Shown piece by piece: positions 24,112-36,418 of a stretch of 64,000 bases of DNA. Source of the stretch: Escherichia phage ManiMatter_Bas94. A program made the translations under genes and the position numbers. The stretch lies in sequence record PQ850617.1, one strand, 5' to 3'. A model generated the notes under the pieces. The model ran no database searches and had not been told where the DNA came from. It worked only from the letters and a program-made list of their open reading frames with translations. Each line of letters opens with the position of its first letter. The first letter of the stretch is position 1.

Positions 24112-25282
<1,171 letters not shown>

Positions 25283-25529
25283 AATGCATCTCTTTATAAA
25301 TAGTTTCCGTGTTCTTCTTCCAGTTAGATAAACCGGTAAGAACTCTCTGAGCAACTTCATCAGCTGCCTTGCTTCTTTCAATCTCTAACTCTTGTTGATG
25401 CTTTTCTTTATCCAGATTGTTACTATCTGTTCTGTACTCATTAAACTTCATTCCGCCAAAGAACACCAGAGCAGAGAAGATAACAAATCCTAGATTATCA
25501 CTTAAAGTGCTTTGCATATTGACCCCAAC

Positions 25530-25553
25530 GAAAAAAGCCACCCGAAGGTGGCT
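25530..25553 (-). terminator. Rho-independent terminator after the SSB gene
   Basis: Minus strand reads agccacc-ttcg-ggtggct followed by tttttt. Confidence 0.85.
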
Positions 25554-25574
25554 AAGCTATAACAAGGAGAGTTA

Positions 25575-26321
25575 TTAGAATGGGCTGTCGTTGTCGTCTT
25601 CGTAGGTAGAAGCAGGCTCTTTATCAATCGTAGGGATTGAAGGAGTAGCTTCTTTCTGTTCTGTTTCAGAAGCACGAGTAATTTCACGACCAGCCAGAGG
25701 TATGTTCTTAGCGTCATTAGCTTGAGTAAGCAGGTTGCGCTGGAACGGGAACATCAGTTGATAAGATGCTACGTTCTCATCGGTTTCAGCATACGGTTCG
25801 AAGAATACCAGAGGACTACGAGCTTCACCAACTGCTGCACGATATTTGGTTGGGATTGGAGAAATGGTTTTGATGGAGTTTTTAACTTCACCAGCTTTGT
25901 TAGTGTAGGAGTTAACCAGAATGTTAACAGGCTGACCTAACAGCACATCCTTAAACCAAGACAGATCACCTTTCAGTGCTTGAATGCTTGGGTCAATCAT
26001 CTTGCAAAGATCAAGGATACCAGAGTTCTTAGCTCGTGGGTTTACATCATAACTCTTGAACTGGCAAGCAGGACGTGGTTCTAATGCCTTACCATCGGAA
26101 TCTTTACCCGTAGCATCAACACCAATCAGCTCGAAAGCCAAATCCATACGGAAAGCTGGATTCTTAGGAGTTACTGCTTTGGTCTTCGGGTCAATCCAAG
26201 GGTCACGATTGTGAACACCCAAACCTACTACACGAACAATACGTGCTTCGTATTCACCATCAGGGATTACATCGTAGTTGGATTTACGAGAAGAAGTTGC
26301 GATAGTTGGAATCATAGACAT
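25575..26321 (-). CDS. ssDNA-binding protein (T7 gp2.5-like)
   Basis: Acidic C-terminal tail STYEDDNDSPF ends in an aromatic residue, as in SSB/gp2.5 tails. High-expression codon bias, own promoter and own terminator. Confidence 0.6.
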   Translation of the reverse strand: MSMIPTIATSSRKSNYDVIPDGEYEARIVRVVGLGVHNRDPWIDPKTKAVTPKNPAFRMDLAFELIGVDATGKDSDGKALEPRPACQFKSYDVNPRAKNSGILDLCKMIDPSIQALKGDLSWFKDVLLGQPVNILVNSYTNKAGEVKNSIKTISPIPTKYRAAVGEARSPLVFFEPYAETDENVASYQLMFPFQRNLLTQANDAKNIPLAGREITRASETEQKEATPSIPTIDKEPASTYEDDNDSPF

Positions 26322-26380
26322 ATTTTAATTTCCTTATTTAATTTGAAAGATTGTTGCTCTCTTTGAGCGGTTATGTATAA

Positions 26381-26389
26381 TATACATTA
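26381..26389 (-). promoter_or_regulatory. TAATGTATA motif (minus strand) upstream of the SSB gene
   Basis: Plus-strand tatacatta is an exact minus-strand motif about 60 nt upstream of ATG 26321. It forms a near-palindrome with ttatgtata (26371-26379). Confidence 0.55.
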
Positions 26390-26452
26390 CGCTTATACCG
26401 ATAAGAGTACTATATAATATAAGTGTCTTTGGTAGTAGATATAACACACTAG

Positions 26453-26461
26453 TAATGTATA
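26453..26461 (+). promoter_or_regulatory. Orphan plus-strand TAATGTATA motif with GGTAGTAGATAT upstream element
   Basis: Exact motif pointing rightward into ORF-free sequence inside the leftward gene train. GGTAGTAGATAT lies 10 nt upstream, the same arrangement as at 36386 on the minus strand. Confidence 0.45.
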
Positions 26462-26557
26462 TATTGTATAGCTGATAAAGTTATTGCAGGCTTGTATATT
26501 GGGCAATTCATAGAATCCCTTGCAAGTACCGAAGGGCAGGAGCCACCTGCGAGATAA

Positions 26558-26623
26558 AAATAGAGAATTAAGGAATCCTTGATTTAGGTTGTAGGGACTC
26601 CTAGGGACTTTGATTCTCTATTT
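26558..26623. terminator. Long inverted repeat (11-bp arms), probable minus-strand terminator
   Basis: Arms aaatagagaat...attctctattt. On the minus strand the hairpin is followed by TTTTTATCTC. Confidence 0.55.
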
Positions 26624-26742
26624 AAAAGAATAAATAATTACTATATCTAATACTAAACAGACTGAAACAAAGATAAGAAACTTCTTATAAATACTCATTA
26701 CTTATCATCTAAATAGTTAACTAATCTCTGATATAAAGAAGT

Positions 26743-26931
26743 TTAAATCAAGCATCCATCACAAACATAGTCTCCACTAAGAGACTCTTGTAACAAACGA
26801 TTTTGTTCCTCTGAATATAGAGAATTTACTAATTCTTTTAACTCTGAAAGAGTGATGAAATCAATAGTATTTCCATTATCTAAAATAGAAGAGTTAAGTA
26901 AATATTCATTGTCTTTAATTTTATTAATCAT
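26743..26931 (-). CDS. Hypothetical protein (62 aa, AT-rich)
   Basis: ORF-track ORF. ATGA coupling to the upstream small ORF. Confidence 0.45.
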   Translation of the reverse strand: MINKIKDNEYLLNSSILDNGNTIDFITLSELKELVNSLYSEEQNRLLQESLSGDYVCDGCLI

Positions 26932-27068
26932 TCTTCATTTCCTTTTACTTCAGCGTAGACTTTGATAATGCCCTTAAGAACTTCCTTAGAAGCAATAGCA
27001 CTTTCTTCAGAGGTGTGAATAGTAGAAAACTCTTTCTTTCCAATCTTGTAAGTGTGAACCCAAATCAT
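26928..27068 (-). CDS. Small hypothetical protein (46 aa)
   Basis: Hand translation gives MIWVHTYKIGKKEFSTIHTSEESAIASKEVLKGIIKVYAEVKGNEE. ATGA overlap downstream. Confidence 0.4.
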   Translation of the reverse strand: MIWVHTYKIGKKEFSTIHTSEESAIASKEVLKGIIKVYAEVKGNEE

Positions 27069-27070
27069 AC

Positions 27071-27232
27071 TTATTCCTCGTATTCCCAATTTCTTTCATA
27101 ATATCCAGAGTTATAATTTAGAGCGCATCTCTCAGCCTCTTCTATGTCATCAGTGTTTAGGATATTTACCCACCCACCAACTTCATCAAAACCTTCTTCC
27201 TCTTCGTTAAACCATACACTATACTTTTTCAT
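27071..27232 (-). CDS. Small acidic hypothetical protein (53 aa)
   Basis: Hand translation gives MKKYSVWFNEEEEGFDEVGGWVNILNTDDIEEAERCALNYNSGYYERNWEYEE. ATGA overlap with the upstream gene. Confidence 0.4.
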   Translation of the reverse strand: MKKYSVWFNEEEEGFDEVGGWVNILNTDDIEEAERCALNYNSGYYERNWEYEE

Positions 27233-27621
27233 CGAATCACCAAAGGCTCTTCAGAGTACACAGGAGCGGCTATTTCTACAGGAGGTGCTGCCCTAAGGTC
27301 ATTAAGTCTTACACCCTTCAGCATCCCATCTAGGTGGTCCTTTTTGGGTATTCCAACAGGGAAGTCGTCAATCCAGATATCTACAAAGAAACCTAACTGG
27401 CGACATACGTCATCTTTCTGAACACCATTGCAAAAGATGATAGGAATCTGCAAACGCTCTGCATCAATCTTAATGTCGTGATTATCATACCCATTAGGCT
27501 CTGCAAAGCGGTAAGTTACAAAACGTACATCATAACCTTTGGCTTGCATTAATGCCACCACAGATCGCCACAGCTCTTTATCTGAGGTGTAAGTATCATC
27601 GTAATCTAAACCAATATTCAT
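27229..27621 (-). CDS. HAD-superfamily phosphatase (nucleotidase candidate)
   Basis: N-terminal DxDxT motif (GLDYDDTYT) and C-terminal acidic motif DIWIDDFP. Confidence 0.5.
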   Translation of the reverse strand: MNIGLDYDDTYTSDKELWRSVVALMQAKGYDVRFVTYRFAEPNGYDNHDIKIDAERLQIPIIFCNGVQKDDVCRQLGFFVDIWIDDFPVGIPKKDHLDGMLKGVRLNDLRAAPPVEIAAPVYSEEPLVIR

Positions 27622-27637
27622 GTTGAATCCTTTTAGA

Positions 27638-27662
27638 CAAGAAAAGCCGCCCTAAGGCAGCT
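27638..27662 (-). terminator. Rho-independent terminator
   Basis: Minus strand reads gctgcc-ttag-ggcggc (fully paired only on this strand, through a G-U pair) followed by ttttc. Confidence 0.6.
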
Positions 27663-27668
27663 TCTTAT

Positions 27669-27845
27669 TTAACTATTCACTTTAGCTTCAAGTGTTTCAT
27701 TTTCAATACTCAAGTCAATCACTACGCCAGTAAGCTCAACGACTGCTTGGCGAAGGGCGTCTTTACCCATAGAATGTACTTGAGATAAGAAGAAAGCTTT
27801 ACCTTCTTCCGTGGATAGGGTTTCTTTTAATTCAGAAGCAGTCAT
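27669..27845 (-). CDS. Small hypothetical protein (58 aa)
   Basis: Hand translation gives MTASELKETLSTEEGKAFFLSQVHSMGKDALRQAVVELTGVVIDLSIENETLEAKVNS. Confidence 0.4.
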   Translation of the reverse strand: MTASELKETLSTEEGKAFFLSQVHSMGKDALRQAVVELTGVVIDLSIENETLEAKVNS

Positions 27846-27859
27846 TGATATTCCTTATT

Positions 27860-28027
27860 TTACATTGTATAAATTCGCATGATTGTACCACCATCAGCTT
27901 CAATAGCAGAAACAACTTCATCTCGTTCTTCATCCGTGTACACTAGTACGCTTTTAAACGAGCCAGTCACATCTGTGTACAAAATGTTGTACTTGGGAGG
28001 TGGTTTACGGTAAATACCTTCCATCAT
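27860..28027 (-). CDS. Small hypothetical protein
   Basis: Start moved to ATG 28027 (MMEGIYRK..), which makes an ATGA overlap with a 39-aa upstream ORF. Confidence 0.4.
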   Translation of the reverse strand: MMEGIYRKPPPKYNILYTDVTGSFKSVLVYTDEERDEVVSAIEADGGTIMRIYTM

Positions 28028-28221: not shown

Positions 28222-28715
28222 TTAGTGTGTATGCATCCAGTTTAACCCAATCTGACAATCAGAAGCCAGAGGACACTCCATGTTCAAGTACTCACCAGCC
28301 TTCTTAACACAAAGCTCGGTGTACTCTTTGAGTTTCTGTACATCATTACGGTTCACTGAGAACTGGCCCTCATCGTGCATATCAATTACCTTAGCACAAC
28401 GAACTCCATCTTTCTCAATCCACTTGTTAAGGAACATCATAGCATATTTCATAACAACAGCACCAGCACATTGCAGGAGTGTGTTAAGGGCTTTATGAAC
28501 CATAACCTTACCAGTGGCATCCCGTCTCATTGTAATCTTACGACCATCAACGCCAATCAAATACCCTTGAGCAGCTTTCTCTGTCATACGATCAATGAGG
28601 ATTGCAATACATGGGTTCTCTGCCAAGAAGCGTGCTCGCATCACTGAACCTTCGTCAGCTCCACCACCTACGATTGAACCAAGCTTAGCATCACCAGCAC
28701 CATAGTTAAACGCAT
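28222..28715 (-). CDS. DNA polymerase (family A, T7 gp5-like), exon 2
   Basis: Begins (Y)AFNYGAGDAKLGSIVG, the second half of motif B. Contains motif C VIDMHDEGQF. There is no start codon at the true 5' end. Confidence 0.85.
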
Positions 28716-29421
28716 CTCATATATTCGACAAGAGCCGCAACACTCTCGCCCGTTCTCTTATGAACTGCTACATGTCGCCATGTAGGATAGACTATATCAT
28801 CACCCTCTGTCGAGGGGTTGGGCGCTTCCACCGGCATTAGCTTCCGGTGTACTCCTTTCGGATAGTCGTTGCACCTTCAAGTATTCTATAGCTGTTTCTA
28901 ATCGGCTAACATCATCTTTCAATAGCCCTAAAGCTCTGTTGCAGTTGTGACACAACAGACCGCGTATTACTCCGGATTCATGGCAATGATCAACCACAAG
29001 TTTAATTCTGTGATGTGTTGCCATTGCAAACCCTTCGCCCTTACAGATAGCACACTTCCCATCCTGATCAGCGTACATCTTTTCGTAATCGCTGGCTGTG
29101 ATTCCATAAATTCGTTTGAAGTAGGAATTTCTCCAGCCCCTATCTTTGCATTCATCAGAGCAATAATGTTCAGATGGTGCATTTGGTTGAAAATCTTTTG
29201 AGCAATTACGACAAGGTTTTGGATTGAACCGACCTTGAGGGTATTTACTTGCCTCAGCAGTCTGTTCTTCTTTAGTTTTAGTTACAGTTGTATATTCCAT
29301 AAGCACCTCCATGTTGAGTTGCTATAGAATACTTGCTTGGCTCAGGATTGTCTACTAGAGAGTTTCCCTGAGTTCACCCAATTTAATCGACGAGATTACT
29401 CTCGAAGTATCCATTTACGTC
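28716..29421 (-). mobile_element. Group I intron (706 nt) with homing-endonuclease ORF, inserted in polymerase motif B
   Basis: Joining ...TTTATCT(29422) to AT GCG TTT AAC(28715) restores RDNAKTFI-YAFNYGAGD (T7 has RDNAKTFIYGFLYGAGD). The last exon nucleotide is U, and UAUCU pairs with intron GGAUA to form P1. The last intron nucleotide is G. GNRA hairpins cgaga-gtaa-tctcg and ctacatg-gcga-catgtag are present. Confidence 0.8.
28800..29300 (-). CDS. Intron-encoded His-Me finger endonuclease (endonuclease VII / HNH type)
   Basis: VVDHCHESGVIRGLLCHNCNRALG is the EndoVII-family signature. An N-terminal Cys cluster is present. ATG 29300 is preferred (GGAGGT SD within the listed start). Confidence 0.8.
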   Translation of the reverse strand: MEYTTVTKTKEEQTAEASKYPQGRFNPKPCRNCSKDFQPNAPSEHYCSDECKDRGWRNSYFKRIYGITASDYEKMYADQDGKCAICKGEGFAMATHHRIKLVVDHCHESGVIRGLLCHNCNRALGLLKDDVSRLETAIEYLKVQRLSERSTPEANAGGSAQPLDRG

Positions 29422-36385: not shown

Positions 36386-36394
36386 TATACATTT
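36386..36394 (-). promoter_or_regulatory. AAATGTATA variant motif (minus strand) with GGTAGTAGATAT upstream element
   Basis: Minus strand reads ggtagtagatat-N10-AAATGTATA, 40 nt upstream of ATG 36346. Confidence 0.5.
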
Positions 36395-36418
36395 GAGAGT
36401 TACCATATCTACTACCAA

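What the first reader, a model, noticed from the sequence alone, without database searches (positions are those of the whole stretch)
26322..26742. Orphan rightward promoter motif firing into a 420-bp ORF-free structured spacer inside the leftward gene train
The spacer holds a near-palindromic motif pair, TTATGTATA-A-TATACATTA (26371-26389). One half serves the SSB gene. A further exact TAATGTATA at 26453 points rightward, where no ORF exists for about 290 nt.

The predicted transcript would contain these stems:
- ccctt...aaggg (26516-26535)
- gcagg-agcca-cctgc (26536-26550)
- an 11-bp-arm inverted repeat (26558-26623) enclosing a tandem TAGGGACT repeat

Beyond those, it would run antisense to the small genes at 26640-26931. 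This makes it a candidate small RNA or antisense regulator. Alternatively, the divergent motif pair is a regulatory switch for SSB expression.
Basis: seen in the sequence. Interest (0 to 1): 0.55.

Follow-up and report, generated by a model that had tools for sequence, protein, structure and literature searches.

The report
Overlooked phage promoter making conserved small RNA
In a phiEco32-type coliphage, a seventh copy of the phage sigma-factor promoter points backwards into a gene-free spacer, where comparative evidence says it makes a conserved, folded, roughly 157-nt non-coding RNA that no published promoter list or genome annotation includes.

Summary
The window is a phiEco32-like coliphage (Kuravirus; 99.6% identical to Bas92). 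TAATGTATA is the published consensus of promoters read by the phage sigma factor gp36. The copy at 26381-26389(-) is the known middle promoter P40.

The "orphan" copy at 26453(+) is very unlikely to be chance. It carries the same -35 block (GGTAGTAGATAT) in the same register as promoter P68, including the -37G and -34A contacts seen in the 2025 cryo-EM structure. This composite signal occurs exactly twice per genome. It is kept in every relative sampled, and the 98-nt 3' domain downstream is present in all 98 GenBank relatives.

- **5' hairpin:** it starts exactly at the predicted +1 (A26468) and covaries. Seven stem versions are 100% paired, with G-U pairs only on the + strand.
- **Middle module:** it is exchangeable, with three alleles.
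- **3' domain (26531-26625):** it is nearly invariant, 91-100% identical where gene 40 DNA is about 82%. It ends in a 66-nt hairpin flanked by an A5 run and a short U run.

No rightward ORF exists downstream in any relative, and there is no Rfam match. Best reading: a real middle-phase promoter driving a ~157-nt structured non-coding RNA. Its role (riboregulator, antisense to the leftward terminator, or origin primer) is unresolved.

The parts
25575..26321 (-).
   Evidence: OB-fold/SSB-like model and DDDxPF C-terminus. Labelled ssDNA-binding protein in one record.
26322..26374 (-). 5' UTR of the P40 transcript (predicted +1 at 26374), with a conserved 5'-proximal hairpin GCUC-aaaga-GAGC (26356-26368)
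   Evidence: Numbering follows the P68 cryo-EM register. The hairpin covaries in relatives: GUUC/GAAC, GUUCA/UGAAC, GUCCA/UGGAC.
26381..26389 (-). P40, the published gp36-dependent middle promoter: TAATGTATA -10-like element
   Evidence: PMC8948821 Suppl. Table S3 lists P40. Invariant in 13 aligned relatives.
26371..26379 (+). Not a conserved element and probably not a promoter.
   Evidence: One mismatch at the -14 A position. Not conserved in Suseptimavirus or in L053/L055.
26431..26441 (+). -35 block GGTAGTAGATA of the divergent promoter (-37 to -27). The core GGTAGT contains -37G (26431) and -34A (26434).
   Evidence: Identical block and register to the P68 homologue at 36406-36416(-). gp36 CTD contacts -37G and -34A in the cryo-EM open complex on P68, and mutating them abolishes transcription. 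GGTAGT is kept in all 22 unique variants.
26453..26463 (+). -10-like element TAATGTATA(TA) of the divergent ('orphan') gp36 promoter (-15 to -7, plus TA)
   Evidence: Exact match to the consensus tAATGTAtA / tAATGTATAtA. Invariant in Kuravirus, Suseptimavirus and Nieuwekanaalvirus. Reads TAATGAATA or GAATGTATT in the more distant L053-L059.
26468..26484 (+). Predicted +1 (A26468) and 5'-terminal hairpin HP1 (AUAGCU-gauaa-AGUUAU)
   Evidence: +1 is inferred from the P68 numbering. HP1 starts at this base in every variant. Seven stem versions are 100% paired, 4 of 5 pairs show changes on both sides, and 0/500 shuffles reach this. The G-U/U-G pairs exist only on the + strand.
26484..26488 (+). 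Invariant UUGCA immediately after HP1
   Evidence: Present in all 22 unique variants, whatever the middle module.
26489..26530 (+). Exchangeable middle module (A-type in this window). B-type occurs in MN05/ECBP2/L033/L009; C-type in L053/L055/L057.
   Evidence: Each type has its own internal hairpin. The C-type hairpin shows compensatory changes between L053 and L055, read directly from the sequences.
26531..26625 (+). Nearly invariant 3' domain: GAAGGG, hairpin HP3 (26536-26550), A-rich linker (26551-26557) and large hairpin HP4 (26558-26623)
   Evidence: 91-100% identical where gene 40 DNA is 82-83%. Present once in all 98 GenBank relatives at 90% identity or more, and never annotated. Kept in contigs whose gp40 is only 71-82% identical.
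26536..26550 (+). HP3: GCAGG-agcca-CCUGC
   Evidence: One compensatory A-U to U-A change in L053 (GCUGG/CCAGC). The variable base is in the loop.
26558..26623 (+). HP4: 66-nt hairpin (16 + 4 + 4 bp on the + strand) enclosing the TAGGGACT x2 repeat (26592-26599, 26602-26609). It is flanked by A5 (26555-26559) and a U-run, which is the layout of a bidirectional terminator.
   Evidence: + strand -23.5 kcal/mol (z -3.2) versus - strand -18.2. The + strand is more stable in all 16 variants. On the - strand the stem is followed by the invariant UUUUUAUCU; on the + strand by only 2-4 U. The generic terminator scan did not call it.
26626..26742 (.). Non-conserved AT-rich remainder of the spacer, including an unannotated 26-aa hydrophobic ORF at 26618-26698(-)
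   Evidence: Conservation collapses here. No PHROG hit for the small ORF.
36386..36416 (-). P68 homologue, the experimentally characterised twin of the orphan promoter (outside the finding's coordinates)
   Evidence: P68 was used for in vitro transcription and for the cryo-EM structure.

Best explanation
The TAATGTATA at 26453 is the -10-like element of a genuine seventh promoter for the phage sigma factor gp36.

**Promoter (sequence shown; activity inferred).**
- It is of the same sub-class as the middle promoter P68: GGTAGT... at -37 and tAATGTAtA at -15 to -7. P68 transcription is activated by gp79.
- It lies back-to-back with P40. The two start sites are about 94 bp apart and the footprints do not overlap.
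- It should start transcription at A26468, rightward, against the leftward gene train.

**Product.** It is not an mRNA. It is a non-coding RNA of about 157 nt with four parts:
- a 5'-terminal clamp hairpin (26468-26484) that probably protects the 5' end;
- an invariant UUGCA;
- a structured but exchangeable middle module;
- a nearly invariant 3' domain (26531-26625) ending in a 66-nt hairpin.

**3' end (inferred).** The hairpin sits between an A5 run and a short U run. It can therefore serve as a shared bidirectional terminator. It would end the small RNA near 26624, and it would end or pause leftward transcripts from genes 58-41 near 26553.

**Role (inferred).** The RNA accumulates in the middle phase, and its invariant 3' domain is the effector. 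Loops as well as stems are frozen, so this domain is probably recognised sequence-specifically by a protein or nucleic-acid partner. It is also perfectly complementary to the terminator region of the leftward transcripts. That gives it a built-in cis target at the boundary between the gene 41 and gene 40 operons, upstream of the operon that encodes the SSB-like protein and the sigma factor itself.
For: **Identity of the motif.** The window is 99.6% identical to phage Bas92 and about 94% to phiEco32. tAATGTAtA is the published gp36 promoter element, with the start site 6-8 bp downstream.

**Promoter architecture.**
- The orphan has GGTAGTAGATAT, then 10 nt, then TAATGTATATA. This is identical in -35 block and register to P68.
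- In the cryo-EM open complex on P68, gp36 reads -14A, -13A, -12T, -11G, -37G and -34A. Mutating these abolishes transcription. All six bases are present in the orphan.
- The 31-nt composite pattern occurs exactly twice per genome, at P68 and at the orphan, in phiEco32, NJ01, ECBP2, KBNP1711 and this window.

**Conservation.**
- The promoter is invariant in 13 phages of three genera.
- It is present in every locus examined that has the element.
- It is retained, with GGTAGT and AATG intact, in metagenomic relatives whose gp40 is 71-82% identical.
- It survives where a gene is inserted next to it.

**RNA-level evidence.**
- HP1 begins exactly at the predicted +1 in all variants. Its seven different stem sequences are all paired. 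Four of five pairs have double changes, and 0/500 shuffles reach this.
- G-U pairs in HP1, and one A-to-G change in HP4 (XT32), are tolerated only on the + strand.
- The + strand fold is more stable than the - strand fold in 16 of 16 variants.
- HP3 has one compensatory change.

**Constraint.** The 3' domain is 91-100% identical where gene 40 DNA is 82-83%. It is present in all 98 GenBank relatives.

**Non-coding.** No + strand ORF follows. 1-3 nt indels occur inside the conserved block. No rightward gene lies downstream in any relative.

**Why it was missed.** The published computational scan searched only the strand co-oriented with genes. Published lists give six promoters.
Against: - No transcript data exist for this strand, so promoter activity and both RNA ends are predictions.
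- The two primary phiEco32 papers (Savalia 2008, Pavlova 2012) could not be read. A tested-and-inactive result or a brief mention there cannot be excluded.
- In the more distant clade the -10 element is TAATGAATA and the -35/-10 spacing is 1 nt shorter. This is untested for gp36-like sigmas.
- The + strand U-run after HP4 is only 2-4 U and the lower stem is AU-rich. The terminator scan did not call it, so the 3' end may lie elsewhere.
- HP4 and most of the 3' domain never vary, so they give no covariation support for any fold. Equal conservation of loops and stems would also fit a double-stranded DNA site.
- There is no Rfam family, and no trans target stands out in the phage genome.
Confidence: 0.58

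Rival explanations
1. Replication origin. The orphan middle promoter provides a primer or activating transcript, as at T4 oriF/oriG or the T7 primary origin and the phiOL/phiOR promoters. The invariant 3' block, with TAGGGACT repeated at 10-bp spacing, palindromes and A-rich tracts, is the DNA site where the RNA-DNA hybrid forms or where replisome proteins load.
For: - It is a phage-specific middle-class promoter with no coding target, inside the replication-gene region. An SSB-like gene lies next to it. DNA polymerase and primase/helicase lie upstream.
- T4 oriF/oriG consist of a middle-mode promoter plus a downstream AT-rich unwinding element, and the transcript primes the leading strand (PMC3016281).
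- Stems and loops of the 3' block are equally frozen, as expected for protein-DNA recognition.
- Direct repeats are spaced one helical turn apart.
- AT-rich stretches lie just after the start site and in the linker.
Against: - In T4 the unwinding element is sequence-independent, unlike the invariance seen here.
- A covarying 5'-terminal RNA hairpin and + strand-only G-U pairs point to a folded, persistent RNA rather than a short primer. ColE1 RNA II, however, shows that primers can be structured (own knowledge).
- The two repeats change spacing from 10 to 9 bp in several phages.
- GC skew follows transcription direction only and gives no origin signal.
- No initiator gene has been identified.
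Confidence: 0.2
2. The act of transcription matters, not the RNA. Convergent transcription from the orphan promoter collides with leftward polymerases and insulates the P40 operon (SSB through sigma) from upstream read-through. Alternatively, back-to-back promoters stimulate each other through local negative supercoiling.
For: - The promoter sits exactly at an operon boundary, back-to-back with P40, whose operon encodes the sigma factor. P40-type promoters are proposed to form a positive feedback loop for sigma.
- Terminator-like features are strongest on the leftward strand.
Against: - It explains neither the covarying 5' hairpin nor the 95-nt invariant domain.
- The distance between P40 and the orphan is not fixed. 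A 47-aa gene is inserted between them in some phages. That gene needs leftward read-through across the element to be expressed.
Confidence: 0.1
3. The conserved block works only for the leftward gene train, as an intrinsic terminator, an RNase III-type processing site or a dsDNA site between genes 41 and 40. The rightward TAATGTATA is then silent or incidental.
For: - On the - strand the 66-nt hairpin is followed by an invariant UUUUUAUCU.
- The - strand hairpin is itself significant (z -4.3).
- The block begins right after the stop codon of gene 41 in phiEco32.
Against: - The -35 and -10 elements are conserved in the P68 register across three genera and metagenomic relatives, while the bases between them vary.
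- HP1 lies outside any leftward terminator. It covaries with G-U pairs that would be A-C on the - strand.
- The + strand folds better in 16 of 16 variants.
Confidence: 0.07
4. One reading: a long antisense regulator of the small genes at 26640-26931, or a palindromic P40/TTATGTATA switch controlling SSB expression.
For: - The + strand U-run after HP4 is short, so some transcripts may read through into antisense territory.
- The near-palindrome exists in this phage.
Against: - The genes to the right are different in different lineages, while the element is constant.
- Conservation ends at about 26625-26642.
- The left half of the palindrome is not conserved and mismatches at a contacted base.
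Confidence: 0.04

Closest known systems
phiEco32 promoter P68 (gp36-holoenzyme middle promoter, activated by gp79)
   Same: It has the identical -35 block GGTAGTAGATAT at -37 to -26. It has the same core AATGTATATA at -14 to -5, the same spacing, and an A at the predicted +1.
   Different: P68 is co-oriented with the gene train and is followed after about 40 nt by a ribosome-binding site and gene 68. The orphan points against the train and has no ORF downstream. It is not among the six published promoters.
Phage lambda OOP RNA and P22 sar RNA (short phage RNAs transcribed against the surrounding operon; own knowledge, not checked here)
   Same: Both are short RNAs made from a promoter opposing the main transcription direction, next to replication or regulatory genes. 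Both end at a hairpin and are complementary to the end of the converging transcript.
   Different: OOP overlaps the 3' end of a coding gene (cII) and uses a sigma-70 promoter. Here the conserved part overlaps no conserved coding sequence. It uses a phage sigma promoter, is about twice as long, and has a sequence-invariant domain.
T4 oriF/oriG, and the T7 primary origin with the phiOL/phiOR 'replication promoters'
   Same: In both cases a phage-specific, middle-phase promoter lacks an mRNA function and lies in or near the replication module. T4 oriF/oriG consist of a middle-mode promoter plus a downstream AT-rich element. The T7 facts come from own knowledge.
   Different: T4 needs no specific downstream sequence. 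Here about 95 nt are invariant and the RNA has a covarying 5' hairpin. Nothing is known about the phiEco32 origin.
Bidirectional intrinsic terminators between convergent transcription units (own knowledge)
   Same: The layout is an A-tract, a hairpin and a U-tract, shared by two converging transcripts.
   Different: The hairpin is unusually long (66 nt) and branched or bulged, with an AU-rich lower stem. The + strand has only 2-4 U. The generic scan did not call it, and its sequence is far more conserved than terminators need to be.

Membership tests
gp36-dependent (phiEco32 middle/late) promoters | Single consensus element tAATGTAtA at about -15 to -7 | tested here: met
   Exact TAATGTATA at 26453-26461 on the + strand. 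The consensus is from PMC8948821 and PMC4281155.
gp36-dependent (phiEco32 middle/late) promoters | -35 region contacts by the gp36 CTD (-37G, -34A), as in the P68 open complex | tested here: met
   G at 26431 and A at 26434. The whole GGTAGTAGATAT block is identical to P68 in register.
gp36-dependent (phiEco32 middle/late) promoters | Transcription start 6-8 bp downstream, detected in vivo and in vitro with gp36 holoenzyme | not testable with these tools
   There is only indirect support: a covarying hairpin begins at the 7th base after the motif in all variants.
gp36-dependent (phiEco32 middle/late) promoters | Located upstream of, and co-oriented with, middle or late genes | tested here: not met
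   It points against the gene train, and no rightward ORF exists in the window or in any relative.
Cis-antisense RNA to a specific gene (OOP-like) | The conserved RNA overlaps a conserved gene on the opposite strand | tested here: not met
   The conserved part ends at about 26625. The neighbouring leftward genes differ between lineages.
Rho-independent terminator (for the small RNA's 3' end) | Stable hairpin immediately followed by a U-tract | tested here: inconclusive
   The hairpin is stable (-23.5 kcal/mol), but only 2-4 U follow it on the + strand. The - strand has U5. The scan did not call it.
T4 oriF-type origin (promoter plus downstream unwinding element) | Middle promoter followed by an AT-rich element, with autonomous replication or R-loop formation | not testable with these tools
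   The promoter and AT-rich stretches are present. GC skew is uninformative.
Any curated RNA family (Rfam 15) | Covariance-model match | tested here: not met
   There are no relevant hits even at E up to 10, in the window or in B-type relatives. No tRNA or tmRNA was found.

The most novel reading that the evidence does not exclude
The RNA made from this orphan gp36 promoter is either the primer or activator of the phage's still-unknown replication origin, or a sequence-specific decoy or sponge for a host or phage protein. In both cases its invariant 95-nt 3' domain would be the recognised part. Either reading would make it the first functional non-coding RNA described for phiEco32-like phages and the first non-mRNA output of a phage-encoded sigma factor in this group.
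Probability: 0.3. Interest if true: 0.75.

Novelty: new member of a known kind. Interest (0 to 1): 0.58.

Why it matters
phiEco32 is a model system for phage-encoded sigma factors. Its transcription programme has been described as six gp36 promoters driving middle and late mRNAs, and gp36/gp79 were recently solved on P68.

A seventh promoter with the complete P68 signature, conserved in all 98 GenBank relatives and in metagenomic relatives, would add a non-coding output to that programme. The element it drives is more conserved than the neighbouring protein-coding gene.

It lies at the boundary of the operon that encodes the sigma factor and the SSB-like protein. It could therefore bear on sigma autoregulation, on insulation of mRNA operons, or on where replication starts. 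The origin of these phages is unknown.

The prediction is sharp: a + strand 5' end at one base, an RNA of about 157 nt, and dependence on gp36. It can be tested with reagents that already exist.

Tried and rejected
**Searches that found nothing**
- Rfam scans of the window region and of B-type relatives gave nothing relevant.
- ARAGORN found no tRNA or tmRNA.
- Similarity of the RNA to complete E. coli genomes: none. Short seed matches would not be detectable in that database.
- 10-mer repeat search of the spacer against the window: only the promoter elements recur.
- RNA duplex scan of the RNA against the whole window for trans targets. The first run timed out. In the second, the best energies were no better than for a shuffled RNA.

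**Uninformative tests**
- GC-skew profile as an origin test: the skew simply follows transcription direction, switching at about 22.5 kb and about 61 kb.
- Generic sigma-70 and terminator scan: only weak sigma-70-like sites at chance frequency. It did not call the big hairpin.

**Structure alternative rejected**
- The long-range pairing UUGCAGG/CCUGCGA from the single-sequence minimum-energy fold is broken in L053, MN05 and ECBP2. The local hairpin GCNGG/CCNGC is kept and shows a compensatory change.

**More distant relatives**
- 7-11 and ECO319P1 (Grimontviridae) have only about 75-100 bp upstream of the gene 40 homologue and lack the element.
- The L020-L022 and L062 clade has a different conserved block.

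**Gene 40**
- The single-sequence AlphaFold model was useless (pLDDT 36). It was redone with an alignment.
- Sequence search against PDB gave no hit.

**Literature**
- The primary phiEco32 papers (PMC3275717, PMC2587145) are not held.
- Searches for Kuravirus transcriptomes or a phiEco32 origin found nothing useful.
Full report
**What the window is.** A megablast of 25000-28000 shows a phiEco32-like podophage (Gordonclarkvirinae, Kuravirus). It is 99.6% identical to Escherichia phage JacquesWildberger_Bas92, 99.1% to LAMP and about 94% to phiEco32. All genes around the finding run leftward. The phage sigma factor gp36 lies further down the same leftward unit at 24378-25022. The 421-bp spacer carries no annotation in Bas92 or LAMP.

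The motif itself is known. tAATGTAtA is the single consensus element of the promoters recognised by E. coli RNA polymerase carrying gp36, with transcription starting 6-8 bp downstream (PMC8948821; PMC4281155; PMC12276001). Six such promoters are published: P6, P13 and P26 (late) and P40, P58 and P68 (middle) (Suppl. Table S3).

In the window, the exact or near copies at 1034(+), 17917(+), 63441(+), 26381(-), 31892(-) and 36386(-) correspond to those six. The copy at 26453(+) is a seventh site that is not on the published list. By composition, 0.009-0.03 exact copies are expected in a 421-bp spacer.

**Why the seventh site looks like a working promoter.** I aligned the upstream contexts of all sites.
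- The orphan reads cttTGGTAGTAGATATaacacactagTAATGTATATA.
- The P68 homologue reads attTGGTAGTAGATATggtaactctcAAATGTATATA.
- They share a 13-nt upstream block in exactly the same register.

The 2025 cryo-EM structure of the gp79/gp36 open complex was solved on P68. It shows the gp36 N-terminal domain reading -14A, -13A, -12T and -11G. The C-terminal domain reads -37G (R187) and -34A (Y186). Mutating these bases abolishes transcription.

With that numbering the orphan has every contacted base: G26431 = -37, A26434 = -34, A26454-G26457 = -14 to -11. Its +1 falls on A26468.

The 31-nt composite pattern GGTAGTAGATA-N12-AATGTATA occurs exactly twice per genome, at P68 and the orphan. This holds in phiEco32, NJ01, ECBP2, KBNP1711 and this window, and in metagenomic contigs. 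The late promoters P13 and P26 share a different upstream block, TAAGACCTA.

**Conservation.**
- The first 321 nt of the spacer are 98-99% identical to phiEco32, while the surrounding 3 kb is about 94%.
- In an alignment of 13 phages from Kuravirus, Nieuwekanaalvirus and Suseptimavirus, TTGGTAGTAGATA and GTAATGTATATA are invariant, while the 10 bases between them vary freely. This is the pattern expected of a two-element promoter.
- Every phiEco32-type locus fetched has exactly two AATGTATA motifs in this region, P40(-) and the orphan(+).
- I used gp40 homologues to pull more distant contigs. L053, L055, L057 and L059, whose gp40 is 71-82% identical, still keep GGTAGT, then 16 nt, then AATG, although with TAATGAATA or GAATGTATT and a spacing 1 nt shorter.
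- In EcM-vB1 and L015, a 47-aa gene is inserted between P40 and the orphan promoter. The promoter persists with GGTAGTATATC. P40 and the orphan are therefore separable modules.

**Evidence that a + strand RNA is the functional product.** Directly at the predicted +1 there is a small hairpin, HP1 (26468-26484, AUAGCU-gauaa-AGUUAU).

Among 22 unique variants it exists in seven stem versions:
- AUAGCU/AGUUAU
- AUAGCU/AGCUAU
- AUAGA/UCUAU
- AGAGUU/AACUCU
- AUAGUU/AACUAU
- AUCUCU/AGAGGU
- ACAUC/GAUGU

It always starts at the seventh base after the -10 element and is always followed by UUGCA.

I counted pairs on an alignment built from three pieces joined in register. These were the five outer bases of each HP1 arm, TGCA, and the 3' domain. 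All 85 HP1 cells pair. Four of the five pairs show changes on both sides. No shuffle out of 500 reaches the observed covariation, and sliding the partners destroys pairing.

Three observations favour the + strand specifically:
- The G-U and U-G pairs in two HP1 versions would be A-C mismatches on the - strand.
- In XT32 an A-to-G change in the large hairpin gives G-U on the + strand.
- The + strand folds more stably than the - strand in all 16 variants tested.

This fixes both the strand and, indirectly, the start site.

**Anatomy of the predicted RNA.** After HP1 and UUGCA comes a middle module that exists in three unrelated versions:
- A-type: this window and most Kuravirus.
- B-type: MN05, ECBP2, L033 and L009.
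- C-type: L053, L055 and L057.

Each version has its own internal hairpin. The mosaic distribution, for example a Kuravirus promoter with a B-type module in L033, shows that modules are exchanged.

The 3' domain follows (26531-26625). It consists of GAAGGG, hairpin HP3 (GCAGG-agcca-CCUGC), an A-rich linker and the 66-nt hairpin HP4. HP3 has one compensatory A-U to U-A change in L053.

This domain is 91-100% identical in phages whose gene 40 DNA is only 82-83% identical. It occurs once, at 90% identity or more, in all 98 GenBank relatives, and is never annotated. It is still nearly unchanged in the 71-82% relatives.

It is non-coding. All frames have stops, and 1-3-nt indels occur inside it. 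In several phages both TAGGGACT copies lose a G together. Because it hardly varies, it gives no covariation information. Its loops are as frozen as its stems, which argues for sequence-specific recognition rather than mere hairpin formation.

**The 3' end and the opposite strand.** HP4 is significantly stable on both strands: -23.5 kcal/mol (z -3.2) on the + strand and -18.2 (z -4.3) on the - strand. It is flanked by an invariant A5 run on the left and a short T run on the right.
- For leftward transcripts it reads as a hairpin plus UUUUUAUCU, which is terminator-like.
- For the rightward RNA it reads as a hairpin plus only 2-4 U.

This is the layout of a bidirectional terminator shared by convergent units, although it is atypical: long, with an AU-rich lower stem, and not called by the generic scan. 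I therefore infer a discrete RNA of about 157 nt (26468 to about 26624). Read-through on the + strand cannot be excluded. Leftward read-through must happen at least in the phages that have a promoter-less gene inserted downstream of the element.

**What it is not.**
- It matches no Rfam family, tRNA or tmRNA.
- It has no similarity to E. coli genomes.
- It has no second copy in the phage.
- No phage trans target stands out above shuffled controls.
- GC skew only mirrors transcription direction.
- It is not a general feature of the wider group. 7-11 and ECO319P1 have a spacer of only about 75-100 bp. The L020-L022/L062 clade has a different invariant block in the same place.
- No relative has a rightward gene downstream.

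**Mechanism.**

Shown by sequence and comparison:
- a complete P68-type promoter;
- a covarying hairpin at its predicted +1, on the + strand;
- an exchangeable middle module;
- a sequence-invariant 3' domain that ends in a hairpin with terminator-like flanks on both strands.

Inferred:
- gp36 holoenzyme, helped by gp79 as at P68, fires here in the middle phase and makes a stable, roughly 157-nt non-coding RNA.
- The 3' domain is the effector.
- The RNA is automatically antisense to the terminator region of the leftward gene 58-41 transcripts. That region lies at the boundary with the P40 operon, which encodes the SSB-like protein and the sigma factor. P40-type promoters have been proposed to close a positive feedback loop on sigma.

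The main rival is an origin-type function, by analogy with T4 oriF/oriG: a middle promoter plus a downstream element, with the RNA serving as primer. That would explain a frozen DNA sequence, but it explains the 5' RNA hairpin less well. Two other readings fit the data worse: pure transcriptional interference, and a leftward-only element with a silent motif.

**Known or new.** The motif and the promoter class are known. The site is not in the published six. One published computational scan explicitly searched only the gene-co-oriented strand, which explains the omission. I could not read the two primary phiEco32 papers, so a passing mention there cannot be ruled out. I rate it a new member of known kinds: a gp36 promoter and a phage-encoded small RNA. 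It is also a candidate new RNA family.

**Gene 40.**
- There is no Pfam hit or named PHROG.
- The family ends in DDDxPF, like the E. coli SSB tip (own knowledge).
- One GenBank record names it an ssDNA-binding protein.

Noticed in passing
window 26356-26368 (- strand RNA), within the P40 5' UTR (26374 to 26322): The P40 transcript also carries a 5'-proximal hairpin, GCUC-aaaga-GAGC. It covaries in relatives (GUUC/GAAC in L053, GUUCA/UGAAC in L057, GUCCA/UGGAC in L020). 5'-proximal hairpins may be a general design of gp36-driven transcripts.
   Followed up: partly
L020:1330-1470, L021, L022 and L062 (read on the - strand of the loci): A more distant clade (gp40 64-70% identical) lacks the element. 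In the same spacer it has a different invariant ~65-nt block rich in AAGCTA repeats: TGGAAGCATCTAGCAAAGCTAGCATATCAAAGCTAAGCTAAGCTATATGCTTTATCC. Its function is unknown.
   Followed up: no
L009:486-629 (- strand; Escherichia phage EcM-vB1) and L015: An extra 47-aa basic ORF (MKFNHKYAATEKARAYV...) is inserted between P40 and the divergent promoter. Its start codon abuts the -35 block, and no promoter of its own is evident. Leftward read-through across the conserved element must therefore occur.
   Followed up: partly
window 26618-26698 (-): There is an unannotated 26-aa hydrophobic ORF (MSIYKKFLIFVSVCLVLDIVIIYSFK) whose stop codon lies inside the right arm of the big hairpin. It sits where phiEco32 has gene 41. 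It has no PHROG hit and only a weak Shine-Dalgarno sequence, so it may not be real.
   Followed up: partly
window 1034(+), 17917(+) versus 36386(-), 26453(+): gp36 promoters fall into sub-classes by their -35 regions. The late promoters P13 and P26 share TAAGACCTA at -38 to -30. P68 and the orphan share GGTAGTAGATAT. All seven sites have A at -34.
   Followed up: partly
window 28222-29312 (-): The DNA polymerase gene appears split. An HNH-type endonuclease ORF (28800-29312) sits next to a C-terminal polymerase fragment (28222-28644). LAMP annotates its polymerase as a two-piece joined gene.
   Followed up: no
window 26487-26530 and the homologous positions in MN05, ECBP2, L033, L053 and L055: The middle module of the predicted RNA exists in three unrelated alleles. 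Their distribution does not follow the phylogeny of the flanks, which indicates recombinational exchange inside a non-coding RNA gene.
   Followed up: partly
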